IMG/VR virus record: IMGVR_UViG_2728369592_000008
Source of the DNA: a virus
Lineage: Duplodnaviria > Heunggongvirae > Uroviricota > Caudoviricetes
Reading direction: 5' to 3' (one strand)
Length of the DNA stretch: 20,348 nucleotides
Shown here: in pieces, positions 6,417 through 20,348 of the stretch
Layout: the number at the start of each line of letters is the position of its first letter
How positions within the stretch are numbered: position 1 is the stretch's first letter
Translations under genes and position numbers: made by a program
Notes under the pieces: model-generated
What the model saw: only the letters and a program-made list of their open reading frames with translations
What the model was told of the DNA's origin: nothing
Database searches by the model: none

Positions 6417-6634
6417 CCAACATCCAGCTCATTGAAGCGCAATGTCGCATCGAACAGGTTCAGACTGTTTTAGGGTTCTGGCTTGAAGGGGCCAGCCCCA
6501 GCAACAGAGACAAGTTAATGATTGGCGCGGTTATGTCACTGCTTAATGGCGTACCAGAAGCTATTCAGGAAGCGGACGAATTGTTGGGCAAATATGAGTT
6601 ACAGAATCATTCAGGCGAGGCGAAACATGAATAA
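6413..6634 (+). CDS. Small hypothetical protein (73 aa)
   Basis: ATGA start/stop overlap with the upstream ORF. Confidence 0.5.
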   Translation: MTNIQLIEAQCRIEQVQTVLGFWLEGASPSNRDKLMIGAVMSLLNGVPEAIQEADELLGKYELQNHSGEAKHE

Positions 6635-7229
6635 TTTCTTAACTTTCCATGCAGAAGCAACGCCTGACGGCGTAAACATCATGTACCGCAGCAACGATGG
6701 CATGACAGAACGCGTTGAGGCCATCTCATATATTGATGCCGTAAATCGTCTGGATGCCGGGGATTATGACGATAAACCAGATGAAGGTATGTCAATACAT
6801 CTCGCTATTGCCGATGGCGGCAACCAGGGATATTTCGATTACACATCACAGCATAACGTCATTATGTGGAGATGGCTGATCGCAACAGTATTCATGCTGG
6901 AAATGAGAGAGGAAAACGGCACTGTCAGCATCATTGATGATACTGGCAATCCTTCCGAAGTGGCTGTTTATTCCAACGGCATCGTCGCCATGCCGCTGTA
7001 TCCAGTAGCAGAGCGCCTCGCTATGGCAAACAACATTGAGGGCGCGATGATAGAACGTTTTGGCATCGAGTCTGGCACAGAACGCGCCATCATTTTCTAC
7101 AGAGCCATGATGGATGTGGAACAAGGAGCACTGACTCCATTTGGTCGTGAAACGCTTGCTGAACTTCACAACAGCTTTATAGCTGAACTGAATGAAAACG
7201 GCATGCCAGCGGAACCAGTGACGCACTGA
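6627..7229 (+). CDS. Hypothetical protein (200 aa)
   Basis: In-frame ATG at 6627 overlapping the previous stop; the listed 6522 start would overlap the upstream gene by ~110 nt and is less likely. Confidence 0.5.
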   Translation: MNNFLTFHAEATPDGVNIMYRSNDGMTERVEAISYIDAVNRLDAGDYDDKPDEGMSIHLAIADGGNQGYFDYTSQHNVIMWRWLIATVFMLEMREENGTVSIIDDTGNPSEVAVYSNGIVAMPLYPVAERLAMANNIEGAMIERFGIESGTERAIIFYRAMMDVEQGALTPFGRETLAELHNSFIAELNENGMPAEPVTH

Positions 7230-7239
7230 GGATGGAGCC

Positions 7240-7581
7240 ATGATTACTAAAAATTTCCGACTGAATGCGCTGGCAAATAAGTATGCGTCGGCACTGTATA
7301 ACCACATTACCTCCACCAGCGGCGGGGACTATTTCATGGTTGATGCGGACGGCGAGGCCGTCCGTGTGGAAATCGTCAATGGAGTAAAAGGCGTTCGCAG
7401 CCTGATCGATAGCTACACACTGGCAGCCATGAAAGTGTTCTACCCGCAGTGGGAAACCGTGGGGATCGAGCTTCTTGAACGTTGCGTCACTAAGGACGGA
7501 TTGACTGACGTCGGGCGTGAGATATGGCAAAGCATGGTTAATGACATGGGCGCAACTGTAGCGGGAGGTTCTCATGCGTGA
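7240..7581 (+). CDS. Hypothetical protein (113 aa)
   Basis: ORF with GGATGGAG RBS upstream; co-oriented with neighbours. Confidence 0.5.
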   Translation: MITKNFRLNALANKYASALYNHITSTSGGDYFMVDADGEAVRVEIVNGVKGVRSLIDSYTLAAMKVFYPQWETVGIELLERCVTKDGLTDVGREIWQSMVNDMGATVAGGSHA

Positions 7582-7945
7582 AAATGCAGAAATGGCGCTT
7601 AGCTCCGCAATCGGAGAGCAGGTGGCAAAGATTGCTGGTGCTGTGTGGATTCATAACCTTCATTCTACTGGTGAAGAGAAAATGGTAATTCAGACGCCAG
7701 AGGGACGCACCATTACTACATCTCTGAAGCCGTCAGATGTTTGTGATCTGATTTGCGCATTCATGTACCCAGCAATGAGGACTGTCCACGGCGATAAGTG
7801 GAAACTTGCGACAACCGCTGAATTTGATATGTGGCTAAACAATGATGGCATGCTGACTGATTACGGAATAACCAAGTGGCAGATGCTGGTTAGCCATATC
7901 GCAAACGCTATAGACCACGTGGGGTACGGTGATGCGAAACATTGA
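7574..7945 (+). CDS. Hypothetical protein (123 aa)
   Basis: ORF with GGGAGG RBS; overlaps neighbours at both ends. Confidence 0.5.
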   Translation: MRENAEMALSSAIGEQVAKIAGAVWIHNLHSTGEEKMVIQTPEGRTITTSLKPSDVCDLICAFMYPAMRTVHGDKWKLATTAEFDMWLNNDGMLTDYGITKWQMLVSHIANAIDHVGYGDAKH

Positions 7946-10688
7946 TCTTATCCGTCAGGTTATCAGTGCGTCTGAAAACAACTGGCCTCATGTGCTGGGC
8001 TGCCTGAACATAAATGTCCCTGACTCTCCGCGCCGTCATGCTCCCTGCCCTGCATGTGGGGGCAAAGATCGATTCCGGTTCGATGACAACGGGCGCGGTA
8101 GCTTCATCTGTAATCAGTGCGGCGCTGGTGATGGGCTGGATTTAATTAAACGCGTAAATAACTGCGACACAACAGAGGCGGCGCTTCTTGCCGCTGATGT
8201 TCTGGGTATTGATTACCGGACAACGGAAACACCAGAAGCCACCAGCCAGAAACGGGAACAACTGGAAACCGAGCGCCAGCGACGCGAACAGGAGCGCCTG
8301 AAAAGGGCAGAGAAGGACGAACAACAAAGACGGGATACGTTTTCCCGTCAGTTTGATGACATGCGCAGAAAGGCTGTAAACGGCAAATCTGATTATCTGG
8401 TTGCGAAAGGGGTAGGTGATTTTACATTCCCCGTGTTGCCCGATGGATCTCTGTTGCTGGCGCTGGTGGATAAATCCGGCGCAGTAACAGCAGCACAGAC
8501 TATTACCTCACATGGTGAAAAAAGACTCCTGACAGGTTCAGCAAAGCGGGGGGCATATCACGCCATAAACGCACCAGAAACAACACAGAGCATCTTAATC
8601 GCAGAAGGTCTGGCAACGGCATTATCTGCCCATTTAATTCGTCCAGAGGCGCTGACAGTGGCGGCGATTGATGCCGGGAACCTGTTATATGTCGCCCAGG
8701 TACTGCGGGATAAATTTCCTTCAGCACAAATCATCATTGCTGCGGATAACGACCACAGCGAAGGAAGACAAAACACGGGGAGAATAGCAGCAGAAAAAGC
8801 AGCTTTATCTGTTTCTGGATGGGTGGCATTACCCCCGACAGATCACAAAGCAGACTGGAATGATTACCACCAAAAACACGGCATTAAATGCGCCACAGAA
8901 GCGTTCAATAAGTCAATGTACCAACCACAGGGTAATGGCGTGAAACAGGAGCCACAGACCATTGAGGGAAGCGATTTTAAGGTTATGGATACCGACCCAC
9001 TGAAACCAAGAATAGAAAGCCGCGAGGATGGTATTTATTGGGTATCTCCGAGAGCTGACAGCCAGAGTGGAGAAATCATCAATAACGAAAGCTGGTTATG
9101 TTCTCCGTTAAGCGTTATCGGTACTGGCAGAGACGATAAAGACCAGTATCTCATTCTTCGCTGGCTGTCGTTTGGTTCTGAAACGCCGACAACCGCTGCC
9201 ATTCCACTGGCTGATATTGGTGAACGTGAAGGATGGCGCACACTTAAAGCTGGTGGGGTAAATGTCACGACCAAAAGCAGCCTCAGAGCAATACTGGCAG
9301 ACTGGCTACAACGCAGTGGCTCTCGTGAATTGTGGCGTGTTGCTCATGCCACTGGCTGGCAATGCGGAGCGTACATCATGCCTGATGGGGAAATCATCGG
9401 AACACCTGAAAATCCTGTGCTGTTCAGCGGGAGAAGCTCAGCCGCAGCCGGATATACCGTCTCAGGGAGCGCGAAAAGCTGGCGTGATAACGTGGCGCGT
9501 CTGGCCTTTGGTAACTATTCAATGATGACCGGGATCGGCGCAGCACTGGCAGCGCCATTGATTGGGCTGGTGGGCGCTGACGGGTTCGGCATTCATTTCT
9601 ATGAGCAGTCGAGCGCAGGTAAGACCACCACGGCAAACGTGGCGAGCAGCTTATACGGCAACCCTGATTTACTGCGGCTGACGTGGTACGGAACCGCGCT
9701 GGGGCTGGCAAATGAGGCCGCCGCCCACAATGACGGACTAATGCCGCTTGATGAAGTTGGTCAGGGCGCTGATCCTGTCAGCGTTTCACAGTCTGCCTAT
9801 GCGTTATTTAACGGTGTAGGGAAACTGCAAGGCGCTAAAGATGGTGGAAACCGGGATCTAAAACGCTGGCGTACAGTGGCAATCAGCACCGGAGAAATGG
9901 ATTTAGAAACATTTATCGCTACTTCCGGGCGAAAAACCAAAGCCGGGCAACTGGTGCGACTGCTGAATATTCCGTTGAGTAAAGCAGTACGCTTTCACGA
10001 TTACCAGAACGGAAAACAGCACGCAGACGCACTGAAAGACGCTTACCAGCATCACCACGGCGCGTCCGGGCGTGAGTGGATTAAATGGCTGGCACACCAC
10101 CAGCAACAGGCTATTAAAACCGTTCGTGATTGCGAAAGCAGATGGAGAAGCCTGATCCCATCCGATTATGGTGAGCAGGTTCACCGTGTAGCCGCGCGAT
10201 TTGCCATTCTAGAGGCCGCATTGTTGTTAGGCGAGGTTGTAACAGGCTGGGATGCTCAGACATGCCGTGATGCGATACAGCACAGCTATAACGCATGGTT
10301 GCGCGAGTTCGGCACAGGTAACAAAGAGCATCAGCAGATTATTGAACAAACGGAGGCATTTCTTAATGCCTATGGGCTTAGCCGTTTTGCACCATTTCCA
10401 TACAGCCCGGCAGATTTGCCCATCAAAGATTTAGCCGGATACCGTCAGCGTGGAGAACATGACGAAAGCCCAATGATTTTCTACACATTCCCGGCCACAT
10501 TTGAAAAGGAGATCGCATGTGGTTTCAACGCAAAACAGTTTGCTGAAGTGTTGAAAAAAGCCGGGATGCTAACCCCACCAAACAGCGGTCGTGGATACCA
10601 AAGAAAATCACCACGTATTCAGGGACGACAAATAAACGTTTATGTACTCAATTACCAGCCAGGAGATTATAACTCATCTGAAGAATGA
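7932..10688 (+). CDS. Phage/satellite primase-helicase (zinc-ribbon + Toprim primase + P-loop NTPase)
   Basis: ~918 aa. Cys-rich zinc-binding motif PCPACGGKDRFRFDDNGRGSFICNQCG; Toprim-like acidic motifs (IAEGLATALS, IIIAADNDHSEGRQNTG); Walker A SSAGKTT near nt 9610. Architecture as in P4 alpha-like replication proteins. ATG 7932 preferred over the GTG at 7929. Confidence 0.85.
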   Translation: MRNIDLIRQVISASENNWPHVLGCLNINVPDSPRRHAPCPACGGKDRFRFDDNGRGSFICNQCGAGDGLDLIKRVNNCDTTEAALLAADVLGIDYRTTETPEATSQKREQLETERQRREQERLKRAEKDEQQRRDTFSRQFDDMRRKAVNGKSDYLVAKGVGDFTFPVLPDGSLLLALVDKSGAVTAAQTITSHGEKRLLTGSAKRGAYHAINAPETTQSILIAEGLATALSAHLIRPEALTVAAIDAGNLLYVAQVLRDKFPSAQIIIAADNDHSEGRQNTGRIAAEKAALSVSGWVALPPTDHKADWNDYHQKHGIKCATEAFNKSMYQPQGNGVKQEPQTIEGSDFKVMDTDPLKPRIESREDGIYWVSPRADSQSGEIINNESWLCSPLSVIGTGRDDKDQYLILRWLSFGSETPTTAAIPLADIGEREGWRTLKAGGVNVTTKSSLRAILADWLQRSGSRELWRVAHATGWQCGAYIMPDGEIIGTPENPVLFSGRSSAAAGYTVSGSAKSWRDNVARLAFGNYSMMTGIGAALAAPLIGLVGADGFGIHFYEQSSAGKTTTANVASSLYGNPDLLRLTWYGTALGLANEAAAHNDGLMPLDEVGQGADPVSVSQSAYALFNGVGKLQGAKDGGNRDLKRWRTVAISTGEMDLETFIATSGRKTKAGQLVRLLNIPLSKAVRFHDYQNGKQHADALKDAYQHHHGASGREWIKWLAHHQQQAIKTVRDCESRWRSLIPSDYGEQVHRVAARFAILEAALLLGEVVTGWDAQTCRDAIQHSYNAWLREFGTGNKEHQQIIEQTEAFLNAYGLSRFAPFPYSPADLPIKDLAGYRQRGEHDESPMIFYTFPATFEKEIACGFNAKQFAEVLKKAGMLTPPNSGRGYQRKSPRIQGRQINVYVLNYQPGDYNSSEE

Positions 10689-10710
10689 GCTTCTTCATGT
10701 GCGTAGAAAA

Positions 10711-10828
10711 GGTGTTGGTTCAGTTGGTTCAGTTGGTTCAATTTGTAAAGTGTATTGTTTTATAAGGATTTTATTCTTTTTATTGAACCAACACTGAACC
10801 AACAACACGGTATTTTGAACCAACACAA
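10711..10828 (+). repeat. Iteron cluster, putative origin of replication (three direct GTTGGTTCA repeats, AT-rich spacer, three inverted copies)
   Basis: GGTGTTGGTTCAGTTGGTTCAGTTGGTTCA at 10711-10740, AT-rich 10751-10781, then TTGAACCAACA-type repeats at 10782-10828; immediately downstream of the primase stop. Confidence 0.65.
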
Positions 10829-10874
10829 TGTGACTGAATTGATGCGCACAACACCTGGCTGGCATCAGAGAGTG

Positions 10875-10950
10875 TTTTACGAGACTTTCGTAAAATCCTG
10901 TGTACAAGGGCGTGACGTTTTTGAAAGTGAGCACTACGAAATTTTCGTAG
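10875..10950 (+). promoter_or_regulatory. Two palindromic sites sharing a TACGAAA/TTTCGTA half-site
   Basis: TTTTACGA-N5-TCGTAAAA at 10875-10895 and the perfect palindrome CTACGAAA-T-TTTCGTAG at 10934-10950. Confidence 0.4.
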
Positions 10951-11143
10951 TTCAAAAAACAGCCTCTGAGAAGTTGTTATGCCTGTTCAGCAAACCATCC
11001 GCATAGCTGATCGCGAATCAAATTACCAATGGAGCCAGAAGCAAGGGCAGAACTGAAAAGCGCCTGCCGTGAAGAGTAATGCGACACCATAAATATAGTT
11101 TTTAGAGTCCATAAAAAACCTGTCAAAACCTGACACACAGAAC

Positions 11144-11177
11144 GATGCCACCAGCTACTGAGCGGTGGCATTTTTTT
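11144..11177 (+). terminator. Rho-independent terminator closing the primase transcription unit
   Basis: Stem TGCCACC (11146-11152) / GGTGGCA (11164-11170) followed by TTTTTTT (11171-11177). Confidence 0.65.
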
Positions 11178-11273
11178 GTGCTATTTGTTTCATATTTTGC
11201 AATTACTATGATGAATATTGCGATTTGTGAAACTATAATAACTGTTGTTTTATACAGTTCTAAGGGGGGCGTT

Positions 11274-11435
11274 ATGGCTATTTCAGTAAAGCCGGTATTG
11301 ATAAGTGAGAAGCAAATGGAAGCGATAAAGAAAATTCAGGAAGAGCAGCGTAAAAAATCAGGAATTGGAGTAGCGCCAACTCTGCATGAAATTGCACGAG
11401 GGTTAATAGATAAGGCGCTGGCAGGCTGTATGTGA
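11274..11435 (+). CDS. Small hypothetical protein (53 aa), first gene of the cargo operon
   Basis: ATG 11274 preceded by AAGGGGGG; the listed longer ORF (from 11145) would read through the terminator and is rejected. Confidence 0.45.
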   Translation: MAISVKPVLISEKQMEAIKKIQEEQRKKSGIGVAPTLHEIARGLIDKALAGCM

Positions 11436-11451
11436 AAATGGATGGCATCGC

Positions 11452-11913
11452 ATGGAACTAAAATTTATTGATAACCCTGTGCGATTACAGGCCTTTCTTA
11501 ACGAGCCAGGCAATACCGAAAATATTGTTGAGCCGGGGCACACGTACTACATCAAGCCTGATGCGGTATATCTCGGCATCTACGAAGGATTGGTGCTGGC
11601 TGGCGTTCATGAAGTGCGTAACTTCTGGCATAGCATTGTTGAATGCCATGCGGTGTACGACCCCGGATTCCGTGGTGAATATGCACTGCAAGGGCATCGA
11701 TTATTCTGCAAATGGCTTCTCGAAAACTCACCATTCCTTAACAGCATTACCATGGTTCCTGACACCACCAAATACGGACGGGCAATTATCCGTTTGCTTG
11801 GCGCTACCCGTGTTGGTCACCTTGATGATGCTTATATCAGATGTGGTAAACCCGTCGGCGTAACGCTTTATCAGTTAACTCGGCAACAATATAAGGAATT
11901 CAGCGAATGTTAA
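11452..11913 (+). CDS. Hypothetical protein (153 aa); possibly a P22 gp14-like virion protein by position
   Basis: ORF directly upstream of, and overlapping, the next gene; the call is by position and size only. Confidence 0.5.
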   Translation: MELKFIDNPVRLQAFLNEPGNTENIVEPGHTYYIKPDAVYLGIYEGLVLAGVHEVRNFWHSIVECHAVYDPGFRGEYALQGHRLFCKWLLENSPFLNSITMVPDTTKYGRAIIRLLGATRVGHLDDAYIRCGKPVGVTLYQLTRQQYKEFSEC

Positions 11914-12584
11914 TTACCCACATAGCTCATAAACATCTCAATCGTGCCGTATACGAAAAAGGCGGTGATGGTGGTGCCTCTAAAGCTCAGGCGAAGGCCC
12001 AGCAGCAGGCAATTGATTTGCAGCGCGAGCAGTGGAATACGGTGATGAATAATCTCAAGCCGTATGCAGAAGTCGGATTGCCTGCTTTACAACAACTACA
12101 AGGACTGATGACTCTGGAAGGGCAGAATAAAGCCGCGAATGATTTCTTTGGTTCTGGTTTATATAAAACACAGGCAGATCAGGCCCGTTATCAGAACCTT
12201 GTCTCAGCAGAAGCTACCGGGGGGCTTGGCTCAACAGCTACCAGTAACCAGTTATCTTCCATTGCGCCCATGCTTTATAACAATTGGCTTAGTGGGCAAA
12301 TGCAAAATTATGGAAACCTGCTAAATGTCGGGATGAATGCGGCATCAGGGCAGGCAACAGCAGGGCAAAACTACGCCAATAATACCGGGCAACTCTTGCA
12401 GGGGCTTGGCGCTATTCGTGCAGGTCAGGCGCAGCAGCCATCCAGTCTTGCGCGTGGTATTGGTGGGGCGGCATCAGGCGCTTTAGCGGGTGCGCAACTT
12501 GGTTCCGTTGTTCCGGGTATAGGTAATGTCGCCGGGGCTATTGGTGGTGGGCTTATTGGTCTTGTTGGGGGGCTTGGATTCTAA
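11907..12584 (+). CDS. Gly/Gln-rich protein with C-terminal glycine-zipper hydrophobic tail; possibly P22 gp7-like ejection protein
   Basis: 225 aa; RBS AAGGAA; C-terminus GIGGAASGALAGAQLGSVVPGIGNVAGAIGGGLIGLVGGLGF; size and position match the first ejection protein of P22-like phages (from memory). Confidence 0.5.
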   Translation: MLITHIAHKHLNRAVYEKGGDGGASKAQAKAQQQAIDLQREQWNTVMNNLKPYAEVGLPALQQLQGLMTLEGQNKAANDFFGSGLYKTQADQARYQNLVSAEATGGLGSTATSNQLSSIAPMLYNNWLSGQMQNYGNLLNVGMNAASGQATAGQNYANNTGQLLQGLGAIRAGQAQQPSSLARGIGGAASGALAGAQLGSVVPGIGNVAGAIGGGLIGLVGGLGF

Positions 12585-14005
12585 TGGCGACATGGCAACT
12601 TGGCGGGCTGCCTAGCATGGCACCGCAAAATGATAATGCTCCTCGTTCTTCCGTTCCTCAGCCTGTGCAGTATCAGCAGCAGCCAAACGTAGGTTTAATG
12701 GCGCTACAGGGGCTAAGAGGCGTTGCTGAGATTAATCAGCAGGCACGTCAACAACAGCGTAAAGCAGAGTTTCAGAAAGCATATGCCGGGGCTTTTGAGT
12801 CTGGAGACAGAAACAAAATGCGCAGTCTTATTTCTGAGTATCCAGAAGAATTTGAAAGCGTTCAGAAAGGGATGGGCTTTATTGATGACGACCAGAGAAA
12901 TTCTATTGGTCATCTTGCGACTAGTGCTCAAATCGCATCTTCGCTCGGAACTGGGGCATTTGGAAAATTCATAGCAGATAACGAAGATGAAATGCGTCGC
13001 TTGGGAATTTCTCCTGAGTCTGTTGCCGAAATGCATGTTAATGATCCACAGGGATTCCAGCGGCTTGCTGGTAGTATGGCACTGTTTTCTCTCGGTCATG
13101 AGAAGTATTTCGATATCAAAGATCAAATGGAAGGTCGGGATATTGAGCGTGGCAAGTTGGCAGAAACAATCCGCAGCAATCAGGCTGGCGAAGCACTTCA
13201 GGCGAGAGGGCAGGATATTAGCCGAGCAAATGCGTTAACGTCAGCATATGCACCAACAGCAGCAATGCAGAATTACAATCAGTACGCTCAAATGTTAAAG
13301 GAGGATCCAGAGGGGGCGGCGGCATTTGCGGCAGCGGCTGGAATTAATACAAACGCCAAAAAATTAATGAGTGTTAGAGAAAACGATGATGGCACTGTCA
13401 CAAAATACTACACAGACGGAAGTGAAGAGCAGGGAAAACTAAACCAGCCAATATCTGGAGATGGGTTTCGTCCAATAGCTTTGCCAACAGCCCAAAAGAT
13501 CATGGAAAAGTCGCCAGAAGGGGCTAAAAAAGCTGCTGGATTTGCATACAGGGTTAGGGATGCTCTTGATTCAATAGATACACTGAAAGACCAGCTTAGC
13601 CCACAGCGAGTGGCGATCATTAATAATGCTTTGGGTAATGGGACGCTGGCTAACTTAACGCTCAGCCCAACAGAGCAGCAATACGTTGTTAATGCTAATG
13701 ACGCAATAATGGCAATACTCCGTCAGGAAACAGGGGCAGCTATCGTACCTGCTGAAATGTCAAAATATTATCAAATGTATTTCCCTCAGCCTGGCGACTC
13801 CACAAAAACCATTGATACCAAGCGCCGGAAGATGGAAAACCAGTTCAATTCGCTGAAAGCTGCTTCTGGTCGAGCTTATGATGCTTTGCGGGTTATTTCA
13901 GCAGTTGACAGAGGAACTTCTTCTTCGTCGCAGACATTGCCGCAATCTGAGCAGGTATCACAGCCAGCAGCCAGCAGTAACTTTTCTTCACTATGGGGTG
14001 ATTAA
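12584..14005 (+). CDS. Hypothetical protein (473 aa); possibly P22 gp20-like DNA-transfer/ejection protein
   Basis: ATG overlaps upstream stop (TAATGG); size and order consistent with the middle ejection protein of P22-like phages. Confidence 0.5.
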   Translation: MATWQLGGLPSMAPQNDNAPRSSVPQPVQYQQQPNVGLMALQGLRGVAEINQQARQQQRKAEFQKAYAGAFESGDRNKMRSLISEYPEEFESVQKGMGFIDDDQRNSIGHLATSAQIASSLGTGAFGKFIADNEDEMRRLGISPESVAEMHVNDPQGFQRLAGSMALFSLGHEKYFDIKDQMEGRDIERGKLAETIRSNQAGEALQARGQDISRANALTSAYAPTAAMQNYNQYAQMLKEDPEGAAAFAAAAGINTNAKKLMSVRENDDGTVTKYYTDGSEEQGKLNQPISGDGFRPIALPTAQKIMEKSPEGAKKAAGFAYRVRDALDSIDTLKDQLSPQRVAIINNALGNGTLANLTLSPTEQQYVVNANDAIMAILRQETGAAIVPAEMSKYYQMYFPQPGDSTKTIDTKRRKMENQFNSLKAASGRAYDALRVISAVDRGTSSSSQTLPQSEQVSQPAASSNFSSLWGD

Positions 14006-16110
14006 TGGCTAAAGCATGGAAAGATGTTATCGCCTCTCCACAGTATCAGGCGTTAGCACCAGAACAAAAAGCGCAGGCTCAGGAGCAATACTTCAATGAA
14101 GTCGTTGCCCCGCAAGCCGGAGAAAGTGTAGAGCAGGCTAAGCAGGCTTTTTATGCTGCCTATCCACTACCATCAACGAATGAAATAGACCGAGCCCAAT
14201 CAGCAACTCAAAATATTCAACATACATCATCTGATAATTCTCTTGCGTCAGGGTATGCAAAGTTAGCTACTCAGCAAAGAGAGGGGCTTGAGCGTTCAGC
14301 AGAACAGGGAGCCAGCCTTGGGGCTGCGATGCGCGATGCTATAACAGGCGAAAGCCGAATGACTCCAGAGATGGAGAGACTGCAAAATGTCGACCTTGCC
14401 CCAGAGTTAACCTCACTCAGCATGGATGCTCTAAAAGCTCGATGGTCTCAACTTTTCGGCTCTGACGCATCTCAGGAAAAGATTCTTCAGAGCATGGGAG
14501 CGAAATTAAGGCAGGATGAGAAGGGTAACACTATCGTTTCCCTGCCATCCGGTGATTATGCTCTGAACAAGCCGGGTTTATCGCCGCAAGACGTGGCATC
14601 GTTTCTGGCTAATGCGCTGGCGTTTACACCAGCGGGCAGGGCCGGAACGGTGCTGGGGGCCATAGGGAAATCAGCAGCTACAGATTTAGCACTACAGGGA
14701 GCCACCAGCCTCGCTGGTGGAGAAGATATTGATCCGTTACAAACGGTAATTTCTGCTGGCATTGGTGGTATTGGTAAGGGGCTGGAAAATACAGCGAGTG
14801 CGGTTTCGAGGGCTGTTCGTGGTGATATGTCGCCTGAAGCAAAGGCTGCTGTCGACTTTGCATCGGAAAGAAATCTGCCGTTAATGACCAGTGACATGCT
14901 GAAAGATAAAACCTTTATGCAGAGTCAGGCTCAGACATTAGGCGAAAGAGTTCCTTTTTTTGGAACCGGTAAGAATCGGCTGAATCAACAACAAGCACGA
15001 GAAAATTTAGTCAGAACATTTAGCGATGGTCTGGGTGGCATTTCTGATAAACAGCTTTATGAATCTGCGACTAAAGGGCAACAAAAATTCATTGAGGCAG
15101 CAGGAAAGCGATATAACCGCATAATTGACGCTATGGGGGATACCCCTGTCGATCTCTCAAACACGGTAAAAGCTATCGACAATCAGATTGCTGTGTTAAG
15201 CCGCCCGGGTAAATCTCAGGATAGAGCCGCGGTAAAAGTCTTGCAGCAATTTAAAGACGATATCACCAGCGGACCAAATGACCTGCGTCTGGCGAGGGAA
15301 AACAGAACCGATCTTCGAAAGCGGTTTATGGCGTCATCTGACACTGTTGATAAAGATACGCTCCAGAAAGCCAGCGATATTATCTACAAGGCATATACGG
15401 CGGATATGAAAAAAGCCGTAGCCAAAAATCTTGGAGCAGACGAAGCCATTAATATGGCAAGGGTTGATCGCTCATGGTCTAAATTCAATGACATGATGGG
15501 AAGAACGCGCGTTCAAAAGGCAATAGCCAGCGGCAAGGCCACGCCTGAGGATGTAACAAAACTCGTTTTTAGCCAAAGCCCATCAGAACGTTCTCAGCTT
15601 TACAGGCTTCTGGATGACAATGGTAGGCAAAACGCACGAGCAGCCATAGTTCAGAATGCTGTAGATAAGGCGACTGATCCGTCTGGAAATATCAGTGTTG
15701 AGAAGTTTATTAATGCGTTACACCGGAACAGGAAGCAATCAGCAACTTTCTTTAAAGGCGTACATGGAAAGGAACTGGACGGCGTTATTAAATACCTCAA
15801 CGATACAAGACACGCGGCAAAAGCGAACGTTCAAAACTTAAATGGTCAGCAGCTTTATGGATTGTTAGTTGGTGGTGGCATCATAAACGCAGCAGTATTA
15901 GCGGGGATGCTAAAAACGGCTGCGTTTGTTGTTCCTGCTGCTGGTGCCGTAGGCGGAGCCGCGAAGGCATACGAAAGCCCTGTTATACGAAATGCCTTGT
16001 TACGTTTGGCAAATACGCCAAAAGGTAGCACAGCATATGACAGAGCGATCAGTACGGTCACACAATCGCTCACCAGAGTCGCACAGGCATCACAAAAAGA
16101 AGCTCAATAA
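14005..16110 (+). CDS. Hypothetical protein (701 aa) with C-terminal hydrophobic hairpin; possibly P22 gp16-like DNA-transfer/ejection protein
   Basis: ATG overlaps upstream stop; Ala/Gln/Lys-rich; hydrophobic stretch LLVGGGIINAAVLAGMLKTAAFVVPAAGAVGGAA near the C-terminus. Confidence 0.5.
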   Translation: MAKAWKDVIASPQYQALAPEQKAQAQEQYFNEVVAPQAGESVEQAKQAFYAAYPLPSTNEIDRAQSATQNIQHTSSDNSLASGYAKLATQQREGLERSAEQGASLGAAMRDAITGESRMTPEMERLQNVDLAPELTSLSMDALKARWSQLFGSDASQEKILQSMGAKLRQDEKGNTIVSLPSGDYALNKPGLSPQDVASFLANALAFTPAGRAGTVLGAIGKSAATDLALQGATSLAGGEDIDPLQTVISAGIGGIGKGLENTASAVSRAVRGDMSPEAKAAVDFASERNLPLMTSDMLKDKTFMQSQAQTLGERVPFFGTGKNRLNQQQARENLVRTFSDGLGGISDKQLYESATKGQQKFIEAAGKRYNRIIDAMGDTPVDLSNTVKAIDNQIAVLSRPGKSQDRAAVKVLQQFKDDITSGPNDLRLARENRTDLRKRFMASSDTVDKDTLQKASDIIYKAYTADMKKAVAKNLGADEAINMARVDRSWSKFNDMMGRTRVQKAIASGKATPEDVTKLVFSQSPSERSQLYRLLDDNGRQNARAAIVQNAVDKATDPSGNISVEKFINALHRNRKQSATFFKGVHGKELDGVIKYLNDTRHAAKANVQNLNGQQLYGLLVGGGIINAAVLAGMLKTAAFVVPAAGAVGGAAKAYESPVIRNALLRLANTPKGSTAYDRAISTVTQSLTRVAQASQKEAQ

Positions 16111-16128
16111 CTGGTAGCCATGGATGGC

Positions 16129-16743
16129 TTAGATATCTCTGCTGTCTCCATTAGGAAATAAAAGATAATATGGATTTGCCTTTCTTGCTCTCCTTGCTTC
16201 ACCTGGATACCTGTTAGTCAGTAGTTTGCATAATGAGCAGAGAACAACACTCAAGAAAATTCCGAATGAGAAGATCAATATCTCACCAAAAATCAATGGC
16301 GATATTAAATTTTCAGGATTTAATGATAAGTCAATGTTAAAAACATATTGAGCAATACCAGTAAGTATCAATAATATAATCCCTATGGAATACATTGCTG
16401 TTTCCCAAACATCAGACAGTCTATTTTTGAATTGTTCGCTGGAGTAGTAGTTTGTTATAAAGTCAGAAAAATCACTCTCATATGCATCATCTTTAGGTGA
16501 TGTTAGAAATCCTCTGTCTCTCCATACCTTCTCCCAATTAGTCGATTCTTTTTTTAAGGAAAAATAAATATGTATTGCCAAAAGGATAGCCAAAATTGGT
16601 GTTAGCTCTAAAAAATAGAATGTTATGGAATAAATAATACTGCCATGTTCAAACTCATCTGGGACTATCATGTATGCACAAAAATAAATTGAAAAGTACA
16701 CCATGCAGATAGTTAGCAATTCTTTAGTATCTTTTCTGCTCAC
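16129..16743 (-). CDS. AT-rich polytopic inner-membrane protein (about four predicted TM helices); candidate superinfection-exclusion or defence effector
   Basis: 204 aa, GTG start with AAGGGGG RBS; hydrophobic segments at roughly aa 9-27, 36-61, 116-135, 147-176; visibly lower GC than flanking genes; convergent with the upstream operon. Confidence 0.55.
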   Translation of the reverse strand: MSRKDTKELLTICMVYFSIYFCAYMIVPDEFEHGSIIYSITFYFLELTPILAILLAIHIYFSLKKESTNWEKVWRDRGFLTSPKDDAYESDFSDFITNYYSSEQFKNRLSDVWETAMYSIGIILLILTGIAQYVFNIDLSLNPENLISPLIFGEILIFSFGIFLSVVLCSLCKLLTNRYPGEARRARKANPYYLLFPNGDSRDI

Positions 16744-16960
16744 ACCAACCCCCTTTAGCGTTGTTTAGAATGGCAATCATCATATATCCAAGACATGGCA
16801 TTTGGTACATAGCTTGGGTCGGGATTTCAAATCCGATCCCCGTTGATGGGGCCGTTACAGTACGCGCATATCCGCTTTATGTGAAACAGGAAGATTTTTC
16901 TGATATCACTGCCACAGCAAAACACCAATTTCGTGACCAGTACGCGCGCGAGGGGTATCA

Positions 16961-16979
16961 GTTGCAAAAATTTTGCAAC
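16961..16979. promoter_or_regulatory. Perfect 19 bp palindrome GTTGCAAAA-A-TTTTGCAAC flanked by GACCAGTACGC direct repeats
   Basis: Palindrome at 16961-16979; GACCAGTACGC at 16934-16944 and 16987-16997; related CAGTACGCGC motifs near 16858 and 17225. Confidence 0.45.
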
Positions 16980-17612
16980 TACGTCCGACCAGTACGCACA
17001 CGATGGCGGGGGATACCATGAAACTGTTCTCTACACGAGACAGAGTGGTGGTGATGTGTTGATTATCGGCGTATATGCGCACAGGACGCGCTATGACGAT
17101 GTTTTATGCGGGTACACCAATCACATGTATCTGATGTGATAAATCGTGTTACATGACATCTCATGTTGTGCTGGTGGTTATCACGACGTTCTGAATCTGG
17201 CCTTTGCCTGATATTTTGCGACAAGTACGCGCGCGTAGCATCGAAATTATCGGATGGCGTATGCTGCTGGCAATATGAAGACCGATAGTATTAACCGAAA
17301 AGCGATTAAGGAGTGCCAACTTTTCAGTAGAGAAACTAGCCAGCATAGGAAAATGTAGAAATTACCCAATTAATAGGTAAAAGTTATTGACACAGCCTGT
17401 AGTGGATAACGATATGAATAAAAACCACATATAGTGGTTTTTCGTGAGTGATGATAGTATCTATGTTAGTTTCCTAAGTAACTGTGCATTGACATGTGGA
17501 TAACTTCGGATAGAGTTACAGGCAACCGAGCCCGATCCTCTGTTTCTCCGCCGCCGATTTCAGGCATGTGAGTTTCACGGTCGGGCCTTTTATTATCTTT
17601 TGTTTCGCCACT

Positions 17613-18590
17613 ATGATTGCCGCAAAGCCTCATAAGGACTATCACGAATTGCTAGGATTGCTACTTGAACGTGGCATGATTATCAATGATCGAAATCGTG
17701 CGATACGTAAGCTGTCGCAGGTTGGATATTATCGATTGTCAGGTTTTTGGTACCCATCAAGAATTATTGCGACAACAGATAAAGGTCTTTCGTACAGAAC
17801 AGACCGATTTCTTGCTGGTACCAGTTTCGAGAAGACGTACGATCTATATCTTTTTGACAAAAAACTGCGTCTTTTGATGATTGATGCTATCGAAAGAATA
17901 GAGATTCATGTTCGTTCAGTCATCGCGCATGAGGTTGGTCGCAATGATCCACTTGCCTACATGTCATCAAAATACATTAATCCAAAATTCTCATCTGCCT
18001 TCGAGCATTGGGTGTATAAGCAAAAAGTAAAATTAGACGAAAGCAGAGATGACTGTATTGAATGGCATCGAAGCCAAGGCAAGGAGATTCCATTTTGGGT
18101 GGCGGTGGAGACCTGGGATTTTGGTCAGATGTCTAAATATTATGCGATGCTTAATGGTCATATGCAGGGGAAAATTATACGTCGTTTTGGCATTGATAAT
18201 AAGCAGACATTTGCAAAATGGTTGAAGTGCCTTAATCTCATAAGGAATCGTTGCGCTCACCATTCCAGAATATGGAATAGAAAGCATCCCCGAGTTCCAG
18301 TACCGGATAATGAATACTTTGACGGACTTAATCTCCATCCAGAGAGTTGCGAGAGGATTTTTAGCGCGATCTGTATTATCTGGTACTTAGTTAAACGACT
18401 TGGTCCGGGATCAACATGGCTTCGGCAAATTGCAGACCTTATTGACTCTAAACCAAATGTTCCCGGATGTGGATATGATTCAATGGGTTTACCTGCTAAA
18501 GGATTCCCACGAGAGAGATTCTCTCAGGACTTAGGTTTTGTTATCGCCGACAACGACCCTGTAGCTGAAGGGCGGAAAGGGAGCGATTGA
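17613..18590 (+). CDS. Abi_2-family abortive infection protein (AbiD/AbiF-like)
   Basis: Signature stretches match the family: KPHKDYHELLGLLLERGMIINDRNRAIRKLSQVGYYRLSGFWYP, LYLFDKKLRLLMIDAIERIEIHVRSVIAHEV, LIRNRCAHHSRIWNR. ATG 17613 preferred; the listed 17568 start adds 15 hydrophobic residues. Confidence 0.8.
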   Translation: MIAAKPHKDYHELLGLLLERGMIINDRNRAIRKLSQVGYYRLSGFWYPSRIIATTDKGLSYRTDRFLAGTSFEKTYDLYLFDKKLRLLMIDAIERIEIHVRSVIAHEVGRNDPLAYMSSKYINPKFSSAFEHWVYKQKVKLDESRDDCIEWHRSQGKEIPFWVAVETWDFGQMSKYYAMLNGHMQGKIIRRFGIDNKQTFAKWLKCLNLIRNRCAHHSRIWNRKHPRVPVPDNEYFDGLNLHPESCERIFSAICIIWYLVKRLGPGSTWLRQIADLIDSKPNVPGCGYDSMGLPAKGFPRERFSQDLGFVIADNDPVAEGRKGSD

Positions 18591-18619
18591 GCGATAAATA
18601 TCATTTATACACTGATCAA

Positions 18620-19060
18620 TTACTGAAGCAGCGTATTGATTCTTTTAATATTGTTACCCTGACGCTTCCACGCGCTGTAAATGTCTTTATCCCACGCTTT
18701 ACCAGCTTTTGTTTGGTAGCCTGCTTCATTGAGCCGTTCCGCTATCACACGCCCATTATCAAATCCCTGTCGGATGGTATCGGCAATGATCTTTATAACT
18801 GCCGTTTCGTTATATGGCTTTGGTGGGATGTTCGGCTTTCCGGCAATAAGCGACGCAGCGGCTTTTTCCATGCGCTCCACCAGCCCAAGCATTCGTGAAT
18901 CAATAGACTTTTCCGGCTGTCCCAGCTTCATGCGAATCGCATCAACAAGCCAGGAGGTTTTATCCCCTCCAGAAGCGAGAACAGACCGATTAAACTCATC
19001 CTGCAATTCAGATGGGATGCGGAACGCGACCAGATTAGATTTGCTCATTGCAAAGACCAT
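18620..19060 (-). CDS. Ribbon-helix-helix DNA-binding protein with C-terminal recombinase-type (catalytic-domain-less) DNA-binding module
   Basis: 146 aa; N-terminal SNLVAFRIPSELQDEFNRSVLASGGDKTSWLVDAIRMKL fits an RHH fold; C-terminal IADTIRQGFDNGRVIAERLNEAGYQTKAGKAWDKDIYSAWKRQ resembles the DNA-binding 'recombinase' domain of large serine recombinases. No clear RBS; start could be 19048. Confidence 0.55.
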   Translation of the reverse strand: MVFAMSKSNLVAFRIPSELQDEFNRSVLASGGDKTSWLVDAIRMKLGQPEKSIDSRMLGLVERMEKAAASLIAGKPNIPPKPYNETAVIKIIADTIRQGFDNGRVIAERLNEAGYQTKAGKAWDKDIYSAWKRQGNNIKRINTLLQ

Positions 19061-19077
19061 ATCAGTGAGTAATATCC

Positions 19078-19109
19078 ATACAGTATACCACTGTATAACA
19101 CTGTTATAC
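19078..19109. promoter_or_regulatory. Overlapping palindromes upstream of the RHH gene (candidate autoregulatory operators)
   Basis: ATACAGT-ATACC-ACTGTAT (19078-19096) and GTATAACA-C-TGTTATAC (19093-19109). Confidence 0.45.
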
Positions 19110-19157
19110 GCTCAAATATCAGCCAGAAAATAACGGACCAATCACAAAGCTATCGCT

Positions 19158-19286
19158 GTGTTGTTGGTTCAGAGCTGGGCTGTGTTGGTTCAAAATGAGT
19201 TGATGTTGGTTCAATATTTCAGAAAAAACACAATAAAAACAACGATCTTTACAAATTGAACCAACTGAACCAACTGAACCAACACC
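19158..19286 (-). repeat. Second iteron cluster, inverted copy of the ori cluster (crr-like cis replication site?)
   Basis: 19247-19286 is the exact reverse complement of the 40-mer at 10711-10750; three further TGTTGGTTCA copies at 19162-19215 across an AT-rich spacer. Confidence 0.6.
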
Positions 19287-19319
19287 TTTTTGCTTATCTA
19301 TATAATCTGAGAGGCAGAA

Positions 19320-19607
19320 ATGATAAGGGACAGGAAAGCTGAAGAACTGGAGTCAAAAGGGCTATACCGGAGAGCTGCCGCACGATGGGCAGAAGTCATG
19401 ATGCTGGCAGATGGCGATAAAGAACGTGAACATGCAGCAAACAGACGCTCTGAATGTATCCGTAAGGCGGCACGCCCACCAGCAACTACAGACAGATTCG
19501 GAGATTTAAGACAGGCAGTTAAGCGGACTCATTCGGCTCTTGGTATGGATGAGGAAGCGAGAGGGTATTTCAGGCGTTATCGCGATAAAGATTGCCAGAG
19601 ACAGTAA
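19320..19607 (+). CDS. PerC-family transcriptional activator-like protein
   Basis: 95 aa; N-terminal RKAEELESKGLYRRAAARWAEVM resembles PerC/Pch family activators carried on prophages; RBS GAGAGG upstream. Confidence 0.55.
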   Translation: MIRDRKAEELESKGLYRRAAARWAEVMMLADGDKEREHAANRRSECIRKAARPPATTDRFGDLRQAVKRTHSALGMDEEARGYFRRYRDKDCQRQ

Positions 19608-19868
19608 TGCTCTCTCTGTTTTGGCAAATTACCCCTCACTTTGAAGGGATCGGAGCTATAAAAATGGTGTTATCCGGCTTCCTGCATTGCAGGTTTTCGA
19701 AAGAATCAATGGGTTAGGTTATCGTGCAAATTTGCACTCTGCCAGCCAACGCAATTTCTCGTTGGCGGAAATATCAGGTATTTACTGAACGAACGGTCTA
19801 CCCGCCTGTTCAACTACCAGTTGTACATGGCTGCTTTATGTGCAAATGGTGGTGAGAGAAAATTGTTT

Positions 19869-19888
19869 GGGGGTACTTTTGGGGGTAT
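19869..19888 (+). repeat. GGGGGTACTTTTGGGGGTAT motif near attR, near-identical to the int-proximal motif at 1559-1578
   Basis: 19 of 20 positions identical to GGGGGTACTTATGGGGGTAT (1559-1578); both lie ~70-115 bp inside the island ends in the same orientation. Confidence 0.5.
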
Positions 19889-20348
19889 CTCCAAAGATGT
19901 AACTGGAAAATGTCTTTATATATCAATGTATTTTTATTGTTTGTTTTGTTCCTATTATCGCACCATTTAAATCAATAAGTTATCTCACATTTAAGTAAAC
20001 TACGTTCTCCTCTTGTGCCTTTGATTTTGCTCGCGTGCGCGGTGAAATGCCTGACTGAAAGGTGAGCATATCGACGAACCATTTCGAGAGTTTCCCATCT
20101 GCTCATTTTTAAGTGCAAGCAGGAAAACACCGGACTAAACCAATCAGCTGTTCGAAAATGGCAAGCGGATTAATATGCCATGGCGGGGCAGCTTTGAGCC
20201 GCACGCATGGGGTGTGGCAAGCCTGATGGATTTTGCTGTGCCTGTGGTGGCGTGTTTGCTGGTTTGGCTGTTGGTTAAACGCGAAAGTCATAATGCCAGG
20301 GGAATACCGCAGGGTGTTCAGGTTTTGCATAAAAAAGCCCACCATTAA

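What the first reader, a model, noticed from the sequence alone, without database searches (positions are those of the whole stretch)
17613..18590. Abi_2-family abortive infection gene as island cargo
The conserved blocks of the AbiD/AbiF/Abi_2 family are clearly present (YYRLSGFWYP, LIRNRCAHHSRIWNR). The mechanism of this family is poorly understood, and its position here — after a long repeat-rich leader and divergent from the membrane protein — suggests a defence module on a mobile element.
Basis: partly seen in the sequence, partly recalled or inferred. Interest (0 to 1): 0.6.

Follow-up and report, generated by a model that had tools for sequence, protein, structure and literature searches.

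The report
AbiF toxin with RNA antitoxin on satellite
The gene is a genuine AbiF/Abi_2-type abortive-infection RNase, and it comes with a short, conserved, structured RNA that is probably its antitoxin; the pair is swappable cargo on an E. coli phage satellite, so this is a known kind of defence system with an RNA partner that the Rfam 15 library does not contain.

Summary
Window 17613-18590 (+) encodes a 325-aa Abi_2 protein (Pfam E=2e-52). It is homologous over its full length to PbAbiF (PDB 8VZ6), by sequence (E=4e-36) and by predicted fold (TM 0.76/0.82), and it keeps the catalytic HEPN Arg and His.

It is mobile-element cargo: the window is an 18.5-kb EcCIMP1-like phage-inducible chromosomal island (PICI) at tRNA-Thr. 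The "long repeat-rich leader" is not a leader. Positions 16740-17300 are island backbone, found in 545 E. coli genomes whatever the cargo. The membrane protein assorts independently of the Abi gene. The mechanism is no longer obscure: in 2025 AbiF was shown to be a type III toxin-antitoxin system with an RNA antitoxin.

The real upstream partner is a roughly 80-nt hairpin RNA (about 17523-17601). It lies behind its own sigma-70 promoter and ends in a U-rich tail 12 nt before the ATG. A covariance model finds it, once and in the same place, upstream of 79/80 genomic, 8/8 and 33/34 independent relatives, with strong covariation. Rfam's abiF model does not detect it. A second Abi allele (51% identity) replaces the RNA and gene together, with the breakpoint at the predicted transcription start.

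Verdict: a new variant of a known kind, of moderate interest.

The parts
17613..18590 (+). abi gene: 325-aa Abi_2/AbiF-family HEPN protein, the predicted RNase toxin
   Evidence: Pfam PF07751 E=2e-52. PADLOC AbiD 7.3e-58. PDB 8VZ6 PbAbiF E=4e-36 over residues 4-301. AF2 model pLDDT 89.8; the only significant Foldseek PDB hit is 8vz6_A, E=1.5e-15, TM 0.76/0.82.
18243..18260 (+). Codons for the HEPN motif R211-N-R-C-A-H216 (Rx4H), the predicted active site
   Evidence: R211, N212, A215, H216 and H217 are invariant in 25 homologues. They align with PbAbiF R210/H215, whose double alanine mutant is reported inactive (PMC12373285).
17489..17516 (+). Sigma-70 promoter-like site TTGACA-16-TAGAGT that would drive the RNA and read-through abi mRNA
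   Evidence: 10 of 12 matches. In 83 of 92 distinct related loci a promoter with at least 9 of 12 matches ends 6-8 nt before the RNA core, against 31 of 2000 random 60-mers. The -35 and -10 elements are invariant in alignment A4.
17523..17601 (+). Structured RNA of about 80 nt, the predicted antitoxin and leader. P1 pairs 17530-17537 with 17579-17586. The CYC bulge is 17538-17540. P2 pairs 17541-17542 with 17576-17577, and 17546-17550 with 17567-17572. The apical P3 pairs 17553-17555 with 17563-17565. The ends are inferred, not mapped.
   Evidence: Covariance model R1 hits 17520-17603, 51.2 bits, E=3.5e-12. Covariation: 90-92% of cells paired against 29-46% when partners are slid; score 0.47-0.48 against 0.11 or less; 10 of 14 and 13 of 16 pairs change on both sides. 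RNAalifold finds the same hairpin. Nine subclade sequences fold alike, with a covarying apical stem.
17587..17605 (+). U-rich tail (CUUUUAUUAUCUUUUGUUU) directly after the GC-rich P1 stem; a likely intrinsic terminator or attenuator before the ATG, with no Shine-Dalgarno sequence
   Evidence: Read from the sequence. The CUUCUU/U-rich tail is conserved in alignment A2. PbAbiFr has the same arrangement. Terminator function is inferred: the simple terminator scan did not call it because the loop exceeds 8 nt.
17301..18650 (+). The Abi cargo cassette, occupying variable slot 2 of the island
   Evidence: Homology with islands that lack Abi stops at 17244/17300 and resumes at 18650 or 19162. The full cassette is in 73 E. 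coli genomes.
17368..17442 (+). Conserved upstream block that travels with the cassette: the CATTRATAGGTAAAA motif, then a small hairpin and T-run (AAAAACCACATATAGTGGTTTTT). Role unknown; it may be an insulating terminator or a regulator site.
   Evidence: Conserved in Enterobacterales, an Aeromonadaceae MAG and Pasteurellaceae Abi loci.
16740..17300 (.). Conserved non-coding island backbone holding five CAGTACGCGC repeats.
   Evidence: Present in 545 E. coli genomes whatever the cargo. Repeat statistics.
16129..16743 (-). 204-aa membrane protein in variable slot 1. It is weakly SieA-like and is not an obligate partner of Abi.
   Evidence: phrog_7745 SieA-like, E=4.4e-4. It assorts independently of Abi.
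1429..19967 (+). The host element: an 18.5-kb EcCIMP1-like PICI. It runs from attL (3' end of tRNA-Thr(CGU), 1429-1446) to attR (19951-19967). It carries int (1610-2824), an HTH/AlpA-like gene, an antirepressor, ash, TOPRIM-DUF927 primase (7929-10688), P22-like gp14/7/20/16 genes (11452-16110) and PerC (19320-19607).
   Evidence: Architecture and flanks (thrW/proA side, yagU) match EcCIMP1 as described in PMC11773190.

Best explanation
A two-part AbiF-type toxin-antitoxin abortive-infection module, carried as exchangeable cargo on a phage satellite.

Proposed mechanism:
- A strong sigma-70 promoter (17489-17516) transcribes a roughly 80-nt hairpin RNA (about 17523-17601).
- The GC-rich basal stem of that RNA plus its U-rich tail stops most transcripts.
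- Rare read-through, with a start codon that lacks a Shine-Dalgarno sequence, makes small amounts of the 325-aa HEPN RNase (17613-18590).
- The RNA binds the AbiF dimer, one RNA per monomer, and blocks the R211/H216 active site.
- When a phage shuts off host transcription, destroys the RNA or supplies a trigger, the short-lived RNA is lost. The freed RNase then cuts cellular and phage RNA, growth stops and the infection aborts.
- The cassette sits in a variable slot of an EcCIMP1-like PICI, where different Abi alleles with their cognate RNAs, or unrelated genes, replace one another.

Shown here: family membership, fold, catalytic residues, the RNA structure and its strict association with the gene, the promoter, and the cargo status.

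Inferred from PbAbiF and AbiFCd: RNase activity, toxicity, neutralisation by RNA binding, termination with read-through, and phage protection.
For: Protein:
- Pfam Abi_2 E=2e-52; PADLOC AbiD.
- PbAbiF 8VZ6 E=4e-36 over its full length. The predicted fold matches only 8vz6_A: E=1.5e-15, TM 0.76/0.82.
- The Rx4H residues are invariant and align with PbAbiF R210/H215.

RNA:
- A regex finds the element in 66 of 81 upstream regions.
- The covariance model finds exactly one hit per locus, on the same strand and just upstream of the gene, in 79 of 80 genome loci.
- In loci not used to build the model it hits 8 of 8, plus the second gene of a tandem pair, and 33 of 34 IMG/VR loci.
- It hits none of the islands without Abi.
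- Across about 1.3 Mb of sequence there were only two marginal stray hits.
- Covariation far exceeds the slid and shuffled controls.

Promoter: 83 of 92 loci against 1.6% of random sequence.

Precedent: PbAbiF's own RNA lies in the same place and has the same layout. That layout is promoter, AAC, GC-rich stem, CCUCU, a variable apex, AUGU, the 3' arm, a U-rich tail, about 20 nt, then ATG. [quoted passage not shown]

Cognate unit: in about 55 further E. coli genomes the DNA is 99.6% identical up to 17520. It then switches to a different RNA plus an Abi that is 51% identical.

Cargo.
Against: - No expression, toxicity or phage data exist for this gene or any close (>35% identical) relative.
- Rfam's abiF model RF03085 does not match the RNA even at E<=10 in a 151-nt search. 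It also finds nothing in 11 related loci. Homology of the two RNAs therefore rests on shared layout and a weak in-register alignment (9.5 bits).
- The conserved unpaired nucleotides sit mainly on the 5' side (the CYC bulge). In PbAbiFr the inhibitory nucleotides are reported in a 3'-side bulge (PMC12737573).
- The single-sequence folding energy is unremarkable (z=-0.82).
- The RNA ends are predicted, not mapped.
- The published EcCIMP1 lacks any known defence system yet still gives superinfection immunity. The island's phenotype therefore need not depend on Abi.
Confidence: 0.72

Rival explanations
1. The upstream hairpin acts only in cis, as a transcription attenuator or leader that keeps abi expression low. 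It does not bind or neutralise the protein, and AbiF works as a single-gene system, as PADLOC and DefenseFinder model it.
For: A GC-rich stem followed directly by a U-run 12 nt before a start codon with no Shine-Dalgarno sequence. RCd22 deletion raised abiFCd mRNA 17-fold, a cis effect (PMC12373285). PADLOC treats AbiD as one gene.
Against: Unpaired nucleotides (5' CAAY, the CCYCUG bulge region, YAYG, the CUUCUU tail) stay conserved down to about 41-50% protein identity. That is more than a terminator needs. In both characterised relatives the RNA binds the protein and also acts in trans (8VZ6; PMC12373285). The allele swap keeps RNA and protein together.
Confidence: 0.13
2. The module is mainly an addiction (post-segregational killing) system that stabilises the satellite in its host or competes with other islands. 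Phage defence would be incidental.
For: It has the architecture of a toxin-antitoxin pair on an excisable island. Relatives sit in many kinds of mobile element: a lambdoid prophage nin region, other DUF927 islands and tail modules. Prophage stabilisation is discussed for AbiFCd.
Against: Lactococcal AbiD, AbiD1 and AbiF were found through phage resistance (PMC13064643). The slot also holds non-toxin cargo in most islands, so the island is stable without it. The two roles do not exclude each other.
Confidence: 0.1
3. One reading: a larger unit in which the 870-bp repeat-rich region and/or the divergent membrane protein are needed for Abi function.
For: Physical adjacency and divergent orientation. 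The repeats are statistically real.
Against: The repeat segment is in 545 genomes and the Abi cassette in 73. The membrane gene is in 102 and both together in 45. Abi occurs next to a different slot-1 gene. None of the 120+ relatives in other genera shares these neighbours.
Confidence: 0.03

Closest known systems
PbAbiF-AbiFr (Prevotellaceae AbiF with its ncRNA; PDB 8VZ6; Zilberzwige-Tal et al. 2025, Cell, not readable here)
   Same: The same protein family over the full length (E=4e-36; predicted-fold TM 0.76/0.82), with the same catalytic Arg and His. In both, a single hairpin RNA lies directly behind a promoter and 12-20 nt before the ATG. Both RNAs have a 5' AAC, a GC-rich basal stem, a CCUCU stretch after the 5' arm, a variable apex and a U-rich tail.
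   Different: Only 28% identical in the structure-based alignment. The RNA is longer (about 80 nt against about 37-nt core). Its conserved bulge is on the 5' side. Rfam RF03085 scores 58.5 bits on PbAbiFr but does not detect this RNA. My model aligns PbAbiFr only weakly (9.5 bits). The host is a Proteobacterium and the carrier is a PICI.
AbiFCd-RCd22 of Clostridioides difficile prophage phi027/phiC2 (PMC12373285)
   Same: An Abi_2 toxin on a phage-related element, with an upstream RNA under its own promoter, termination before the ORF, and read-through co-transcription. Acts as a type III-like toxin-antitoxin pair.
   Different: RCd22 carries two abiF motifs and a separate terminator hairpin. 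Here there is one hairpin whose basal stem doubles as the terminator-like element. The protein is about 29% identical. My model gives no hit on phiC2.
Lactococcal AbiD / AbiD1 / AbiF / AbiD-like (PMC13064643)
   Same: The founding phage-resistance members of Pfam Abi_2. Their upstream sequence is needed and is more conserved than the gene, and the genes are toxic without native signals.
   Different: They are plasmid-borne in Gram-positive bacteria. The RNA variant and the triggers are unknown for this clade.
Canonical type III toxin-antitoxin systems (ToxIN, AbiQ/AntiQ)
   Same: The logic is the same: promoter, antitoxin RNA, terminator, toxin RNase, with abortive infection.
   Different: Those antitoxins are tandem repeat arrays processed by the toxin. 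Here there is a single non-repeated hairpin, one covariance-model hit per locus. The toxin fold also differs: HEPN here, ToxN/Kid-like there.
EcCIMP1, a PICI of E. coli MP1 mobilised by the P22-like phage Kapi1 (PMC11773190)
   Same: The same backbone: int, AlpA-type HTH, antirepressor, Ash, primase, DUF2824 and DNA-transfer genes, and PerC. The same chromosomal site next to yagU. The window is 90.7% identical to Kapi1 over 11545-11940.
   Different: The authors found no known defence system in EcCIMP1 with PADLOC or DefenseFinder. This variant carries the AbiF cassette in the slot between the SieA-like gene and PerC.

Membership tests
Pfam Abi_2 (PF07751) / AbiD-AbiF group | Profile HMM match above the curated gathering score across the domain | tested here: met
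   178.6 bits against a cut-off of 25.6, profile positions 2-184 of 184. PADLOC AbiD positions 4-269 of 277.
Pfam Abi_2 (PF07751) / AbiD-AbiF group | HEPN Rx4-6H catalytic motif | tested here: met
   R211-NRCA-H216 is invariant in 25 homologues and aligns with PbAbiF R210/H215.
Pfam Abi_2 (PF07751) / AbiD-AbiF group | AbiF fold as in the solved structure | tested here: met
   AF2 model pLDDT 89.8. The only significant PDB hit is 8vz6_A: E=1.5e-15, TM 0.76/0.82, rmsd 3.2.
AbiF-type RNA toxin-antitoxin (type III-like) | A conserved structured non-coding RNA encoded directly upstream on the same strand, with its own promoter | tested here: met
   Covariance-model hit at 17520-17603. One hit per gene in 79/80, 8/8 and 33/34 loci. 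Covariation is strong. Promoter statistics.
AbiF-type RNA toxin-antitoxin (type III-like) | The RNA binds the protein and neutralises its toxicity; the protein is an RNase that arrests growth | not testable with these tools
   Needs expression, co-purification and mutagenesis. Inferred from PbAbiF and AbiFCd only.
AbiF-type RNA toxin-antitoxin (type III-like) | Protection against phage through abortive infection | not testable with these tools
   No phenotype data. No close homologue in INPHARED phages has been tested.
Rfam abiF RNA (RF03085) | Covariance-model match at or near the gathering score (37 bits) | tested here: not met
   No hit at E<=10 in 16000-19400, nor in the 151-nt stretch 17480-17630. 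None in 11 related loci. The same scan gives 58.5 bits on PbAbiFr and 37.6 bits on phiC2.
Canonical type III toxin-antitoxin (ToxIN-like) | Antitoxin made of tandem direct repeats | tested here: not met
   A single hairpin. There is no second covariance-model hit in any locus except where there is a second gene. The repeat scan found no tandem units next to the gene.
PICI (phage-inducible chromosomal island), EcCIMP1-like | An island of 10-20 kb with int, an AlpA-type regulator and a primase in one orientation, bounded by att repeats, with no capsid or lysis genes | tested here: met
   (attL 1429-1446, attR 19951-19967, about 18.5 kb). The layout matches PMC11773190.
PICI (phage-inducible chromosomal island), EcCIMP1-like | Induction and transfer by a helper phage | not testable with these tools
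   Shown for EcCIMP1 with Kapi1 (PMC11773190), not for this variant.

The most novel reading that the evidence does not exclude
The roughly 80-nt hairpin is a previously uncatalogued class of AbiF antitoxin RNA that serves a large proteobacterial clade of Abi_2 toxins. Toxin and RNA form specificity groups that are exchanged as one unit, with the junction at the RNA's transcription start, inside a dedicated slot of P22-helper-dependent PICIs. Related satellites would then carry distinct, non-cross-neutralising immunity alleles. This would extend the AbiF-to-Cas13 account of RNA-protein co-evolution to a second RNA architecture.
Probability: 0.3. Interest if true: 0.55.

Novelty: new variant of a known kind. 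Interest (0 to 1): 0.4.

Why it matters
AbiF is the proposed ancestor of Cas13, and its RNA partner is central to that account. So far only the abiF motif in Rfam has been catalogued and tested, in Bacteroidota and Bacillota.

The work here shows three things:
- A large proteobacterial clade, including two alleles in about 130 complete E. coli genomes, uses a differently built hairpin that standard RNA annotation misses.
- Single-gene calls such as 'Abi2' or 'AbiD' by defence-finding tools therefore omit an essential component. Cloning the ORF without positions 17489-17605 is likely to give toxicity or a false negative.
- There is a natural experiment for RNA-toxin specificity: two alleles sit behind an identical promoter in the same satellite slot.

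It also adds a recognisable defence cassette to the EcCIMP1 family of satellites, whose superinfection immunity is so far unexplained.

Tried and rejected
- **Rfam scans.** I scanned the window at gathering scores, then 16000-19400 and 17480-17630 at E<=10. There was no abiF hit and no other credible family.
- **Single-sequence folding.** Folding 17380-17625 gave z=-0.82, which is uninformative. The structure became clear only through comparison with relatives.
- **The 870-bp intergenic region as a leader.** Rejected on distribution and breakpoints.
- **The membrane protein as a partner.** Rejected because it assorts independently.
- **The 146-aa gene at 18620-19060 (- strand) as part of the module.** Rejected because it is shared with an island that lacks Abi.
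- **Close homologues in sequenced phages.** None were found. All INPHARED hits are below 60% identity and come from phages of Gram-positive bacteria or unclassified faecal contigs.
- **The Cell 2025 AbiF paper.** The library does not hold it. I could not check whether its RNA survey already covers this clade.
- **The CAGTACGCGC repeats.** The sequence gave no assignable function.
- **RNA against protein identity.** The correlation (Spearman 0.68) is expected from linkage alone, so I did not use it as evidence of co-evolution.

Full report
**1. The observation**

The ORF at 17568-18590 (+) contains an ATG at 17613 that gives a 325-aa protein. RefSeq annotates exactly this CDS as 'Abi family protein' in E. 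coli LS45, which is 99.9% identical to the window. All close homologues begin MIAAKPHK. In the Raoultella locus a stop codon lies directly upstream of that ATG, so 17613 is the start.

Pfam Abi_2 matches at E=2e-52 and PADLOC AbiD at 7.3e-58.

**2. The protein**

- By sequence, the only solved relative is 8VZ6, 'PbAbiF dimer bound to ncRNA'. It matches at E=4e-36 over residues 4-301.
- An AlphaFold2 model (pLDDT 89.8, pTM 0.85) has that entry as its only significant Foldseek hit: E=1.5e-15, TM 0.76/0.82.
- The HEPN motif R211-NRCA-H216 is invariant in 25 homologues.
- It aligns with PbAbiF R210/H215, whose double mutant is reported inactive (PMC12373285).
- The last 16 or so residues are predicted to be disordered.

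**3. What is known about the family**

Since 2025 AbiF has been described as a type III-like toxin-antitoxin system. It consists of a HEPN RNase and a small RNA encoded just upstream. The RNA binds the protein dimer and blocks its active site. The proposed evolutionary descendant is Cas13. The sources are:

- PMC12373285 for C. difficile AbiFCd-RCd22;
- PMC13064643 and PMC12737573, which summarise the PbAbiF work.

The catalogued RNA is Rfam abiF, RF03085. I therefore asked whether this gene has such an RNA.

**4. The RNA**

*Rfam.* Rfam finds nothing upstream, even at E<=10 in a 151-nt search.

*Comparison with relatives.* I fetched 80 genomic loci with relatives that are 41-68% identical to the window protein. 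They come from Enterobacterales, Pseudomonas, Desulfobacterota, Vibrionaceae, Pasteurellaceae and others. Their upstream regions share a conspicuous element:

5'-CAAYNGNGCCCRRNCCYCUG-[variable hairpin]-YAYGNYYGGGCCUUCUUNUUUCUGG

In the window it is:

CAACCGAGCCCGAUCCUCUG...CACGGUCGGGCCUUUUAUUAUCUUUU (about 17523-17601)

*Covariation.* On a MAFFT alignment of 62 distinct copies I specified two helices.

| Measure | Specified structure | 3' partners slid 1-3 columns |
|---|---|---|
| Cells paired | 90.2% | 30-46% |
| Covariation score | 0.48 | 0.11 or less |

- Ten of the 14 pairs change on both sides.
- No shuffle out of 500 reached the observed value on four of the five measures; 6 of 500 did on the fifth, the count of pairs changed on both sides.
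- RNAalifold independently returns the same hairpin.

*Covariance model.* I built model R1 from this alignment. Its hits are summarised below.

| Sequence set | Result |
|---|---|
| Window | One hit, 17520-17603, 51.2 bits |
| 80 genome loci | Exactly one same-strand hit upstream of the gene in 79. The exception has no upstream DNA. In one locus the hit lies 3 kb upstream. |
| 8 loci not used to build the model | 8 of 8, plus the second gene of a tandem pair |
| 34 IMG/VR viral-contig loci, also independent | 33 of 34 |
| Related islands that lack Abi | None |

- On the model-fitted alignment, 92.1% of cells pair and 13 of 16 pairs change on both sides.
- In the window's own subclade, nine sequences fold alike. 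The apical stem varies freely in sequence but stays paired.

*Promoter.* In 83 of 92 distinct loci a sigma-70 promoter with at least 9 of 12 matches ends 6-8 nt before the element. Only 1.6% of random 60-mers score as well. In the window it is TTGACA-16-TAGAGT at 17489-17516.

*Tail.* The 3' arm is followed at once by a U-rich tail. The ATG comes 12 nt after the end of the predicted RNA (about 17601) and has no Shine-Dalgarno sequence.

**5. Relation to the known abiF RNA**

I recovered the PbAbiF locus. Its RNA is a textbook RF03085 match, at 58.5 bits.

The two RNAs share a linear layout:

- a promoter, then a 5' AAC;
- a GC-rich basal stem;
- CCUCU two or three nucleotides after the 5' arm;
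- an apex that tolerates insertions (a Prevotella relative has 36 extra nt there);
- (A/C)(U/G)GU before the 3' arm;
- a U-rich tail, then 12-20 nt to the ATG.

They also differ:

- The internal-loop asymmetry is not the same.
- RF03085 does not detect any of 11 loci of this clade.
- With filters off, my model aligns PbAbiFr in register but at only 9.5 bits.

A 31%-identical relative has yet another hairpin variant, which both models miss or barely see. I conclude that the RNA works like AbiFr and is probably a divergent homologue. It is not a member of RF03085 as that family is defined.

**6. The surroundings**

*The island.* The window is an integrative island of about 18.5 kb. It runs from the 3' end of tRNA-Thr(CGU) (attL, 1429-1446) to a near-identical repeat (attR, 19951-19967). 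In order it carries:

- int;
- an HTH gene;
- an antA/B antirepressor;
- ash;
- a TOPRIM-DUF927 primase;
- P22-like gp14/7/20/16 genes;
- a membrane protein;
- the Abi cassette;
- a small gene at 18620-19060 on the - strand, whose N-terminus looks ribbon-helix-helix by eye (not tested);
- PerC.

This is the architecture and chromosomal site of EcCIMP1, a PICI mobilised by the P22-like phage Kapi1 (PMC11773190). The window is 90.7% identical to Kapi1 over 11545-11940. The EcCIMP1 authors found no known defence system in their island.

*The 'leader'.* Positions 16740-17244/17300, which hold the five CAGTACGCGC repeats, occur in 545 E. coli genomes. Downstream of that segment:

- E. coli 042 and O111 carry HTH genes;
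- K56-43 carries two hypothetical genes.

Homology resumes at 18650 or 19162. So 17301-18650 is a cargo slot, and the 'leader' is island backbone.

*The membrane protein.* It occupies a second variable slot and is weakly SieA-like. The counts show independent assortment:

- the Abi cassette is in 73 genomes;
- the membrane gene is in 102 genomes;
- both occur together in 45 genomes;
- Abi also occurs next to a different slot-1 gene.

**7. An allele swap at the transcription start**

About 55 further genomes match only the first 234 nt of the cassette. In E. coli 165 the sequence is 99.6% identical to the window up to 17520. That point is just past the -10 element. From there it diverges into a different RNA of the same family, followed by an Abi protein only 51% identical. 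The RNA and the toxin are therefore replaced as one unit behind a shared promoter. This fits a cognate pair.

**8. Relatives elsewhere**

Close relatives are cargo in many kinds of mobile element:

- a lambdoid prophage, between the replication genes and rusA/Q;
- another DUF927 island;
- a prophage tail region;
- a tandem pair in Proteus.

None of the INPHARED phages of Proteobacteria carries a close homologue.

**9. Verdict**

The finding is a real Abi_2 gene and real island cargo. Its value lies in the unannotated RNA partner and the cassette structure, not in the repeats or the membrane protein.

- Mechanism: an AbiF-type RNA-antitoxin and HEPN-toxin abortive-infection module. Confidence is about 0.7.
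- Shown: structure, association, promoter and family membership.
- Inferred: toxicity, neutralisation and phage protection.
- Novelty: a new variant of a known kind. One caveat applies: I could not read the 2025 Cell paper, which may already cover this RNA.
- Interest: 0.4.

Noticed in passing
window 5283-5360 and 5423-5510: Rfam gathering-level hits to isrK and to the C4 antisense RNA (the P1/P7 immunity RNA). Both lie inside the CDS that RefSeq annotates as 'ash family protein' (about 4902-5969), just after the antA/B antirepressor gene. This looks like a c4-ant type immunity module on a satellite, and the CDS start is probably over-extended across the RNA genes.
   Followed up: no
window 16858-17232 (within backbone 16740-17300): Five same-strand copies of CAGTACGCGC (at most 1 mismatch), often preceded by GAC, at irregular spacing (80, 52, 92 and 141 nt). 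The window has 7 matches against 1.17 expected. The segment is non-coding and 95-100% conserved in 545 E. coli genomes whatever the cargo. Its function is unknown; it could be a regulator-binding or packaging-related site of the satellite.
   Followed up: partly
window 11452-16110: The satellite carries its own P22-like gp14 (DUF2824) and ejection-protein genes (gp7/gp20/gp16-like, the last with a transglycosylase region). It is 90.7% identical to the helper-type phage Kapi1 over 11545-11940. It is unusual for a satellite to supply DNA-ejection proteins (also noted for EcCIMP1 in PMC11773190).
   Followed up: partly
window 16129-16743 (-): A 204-aa membrane protein with a weak SieA-like match (phrog_7745, E=4.4e-4). 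It sits after the gene-16 homologue, where I recall P22 carrying sieA (from memory, not checked). This is a second variable slot: other islands have unrelated 118-129-aa genes there.
   Followed up: partly
window 17368-17442: A CATTRATAGGTAAAA motif followed by a small hairpin with a T-run (AAAAACCACATATAGTGGTTTTT). It is conserved upstream of the RNA promoter in Abi cassettes of Enterobacterales, an Aeromonadaceae MAG and Pasteurellaceae. In some loci the motif directly abuts the -35 element. Role unknown.
   Followed up: partly
window 19951-20130: attR is a copy of the tRNA-Thr 3' end with a 1-nt deletion. Immediately outside it lies a C-terminal fragment of a tyrosine integrase on the - strand (19972-20130). 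This suggests a remnant of an earlier or tandem element at the same site. In strain LS45 the right end of a P22-like prophage lies just upstream of the tRNA.
   Followed up: no
L096 1142-3972; L053 2982-6924; L131 3917-4001: A Proteus contig has two tandem Abi_2 genes, each with its own upstream RNA. In a Candidatus Electronema genome the RNA lies 3 kb upstream of an N-terminally truncated gene, probably because of an insertion. A 31%-identical viral-contig relative has a third hairpin variant that neither Rfam abiF nor my model detects under normal filters.
   Followed up: partly
window 18525-18590 (protein residues ~305-325): A C-terminal tail with the motif LGF(V/I)xAxN(D/E)P. It is conserved only in the 61-74%-identity enterobacterial clade, is absent from the 50% clade and from PbAbiF, and is predicted to be disordered (pLDDT below 50).
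   Followed up: no
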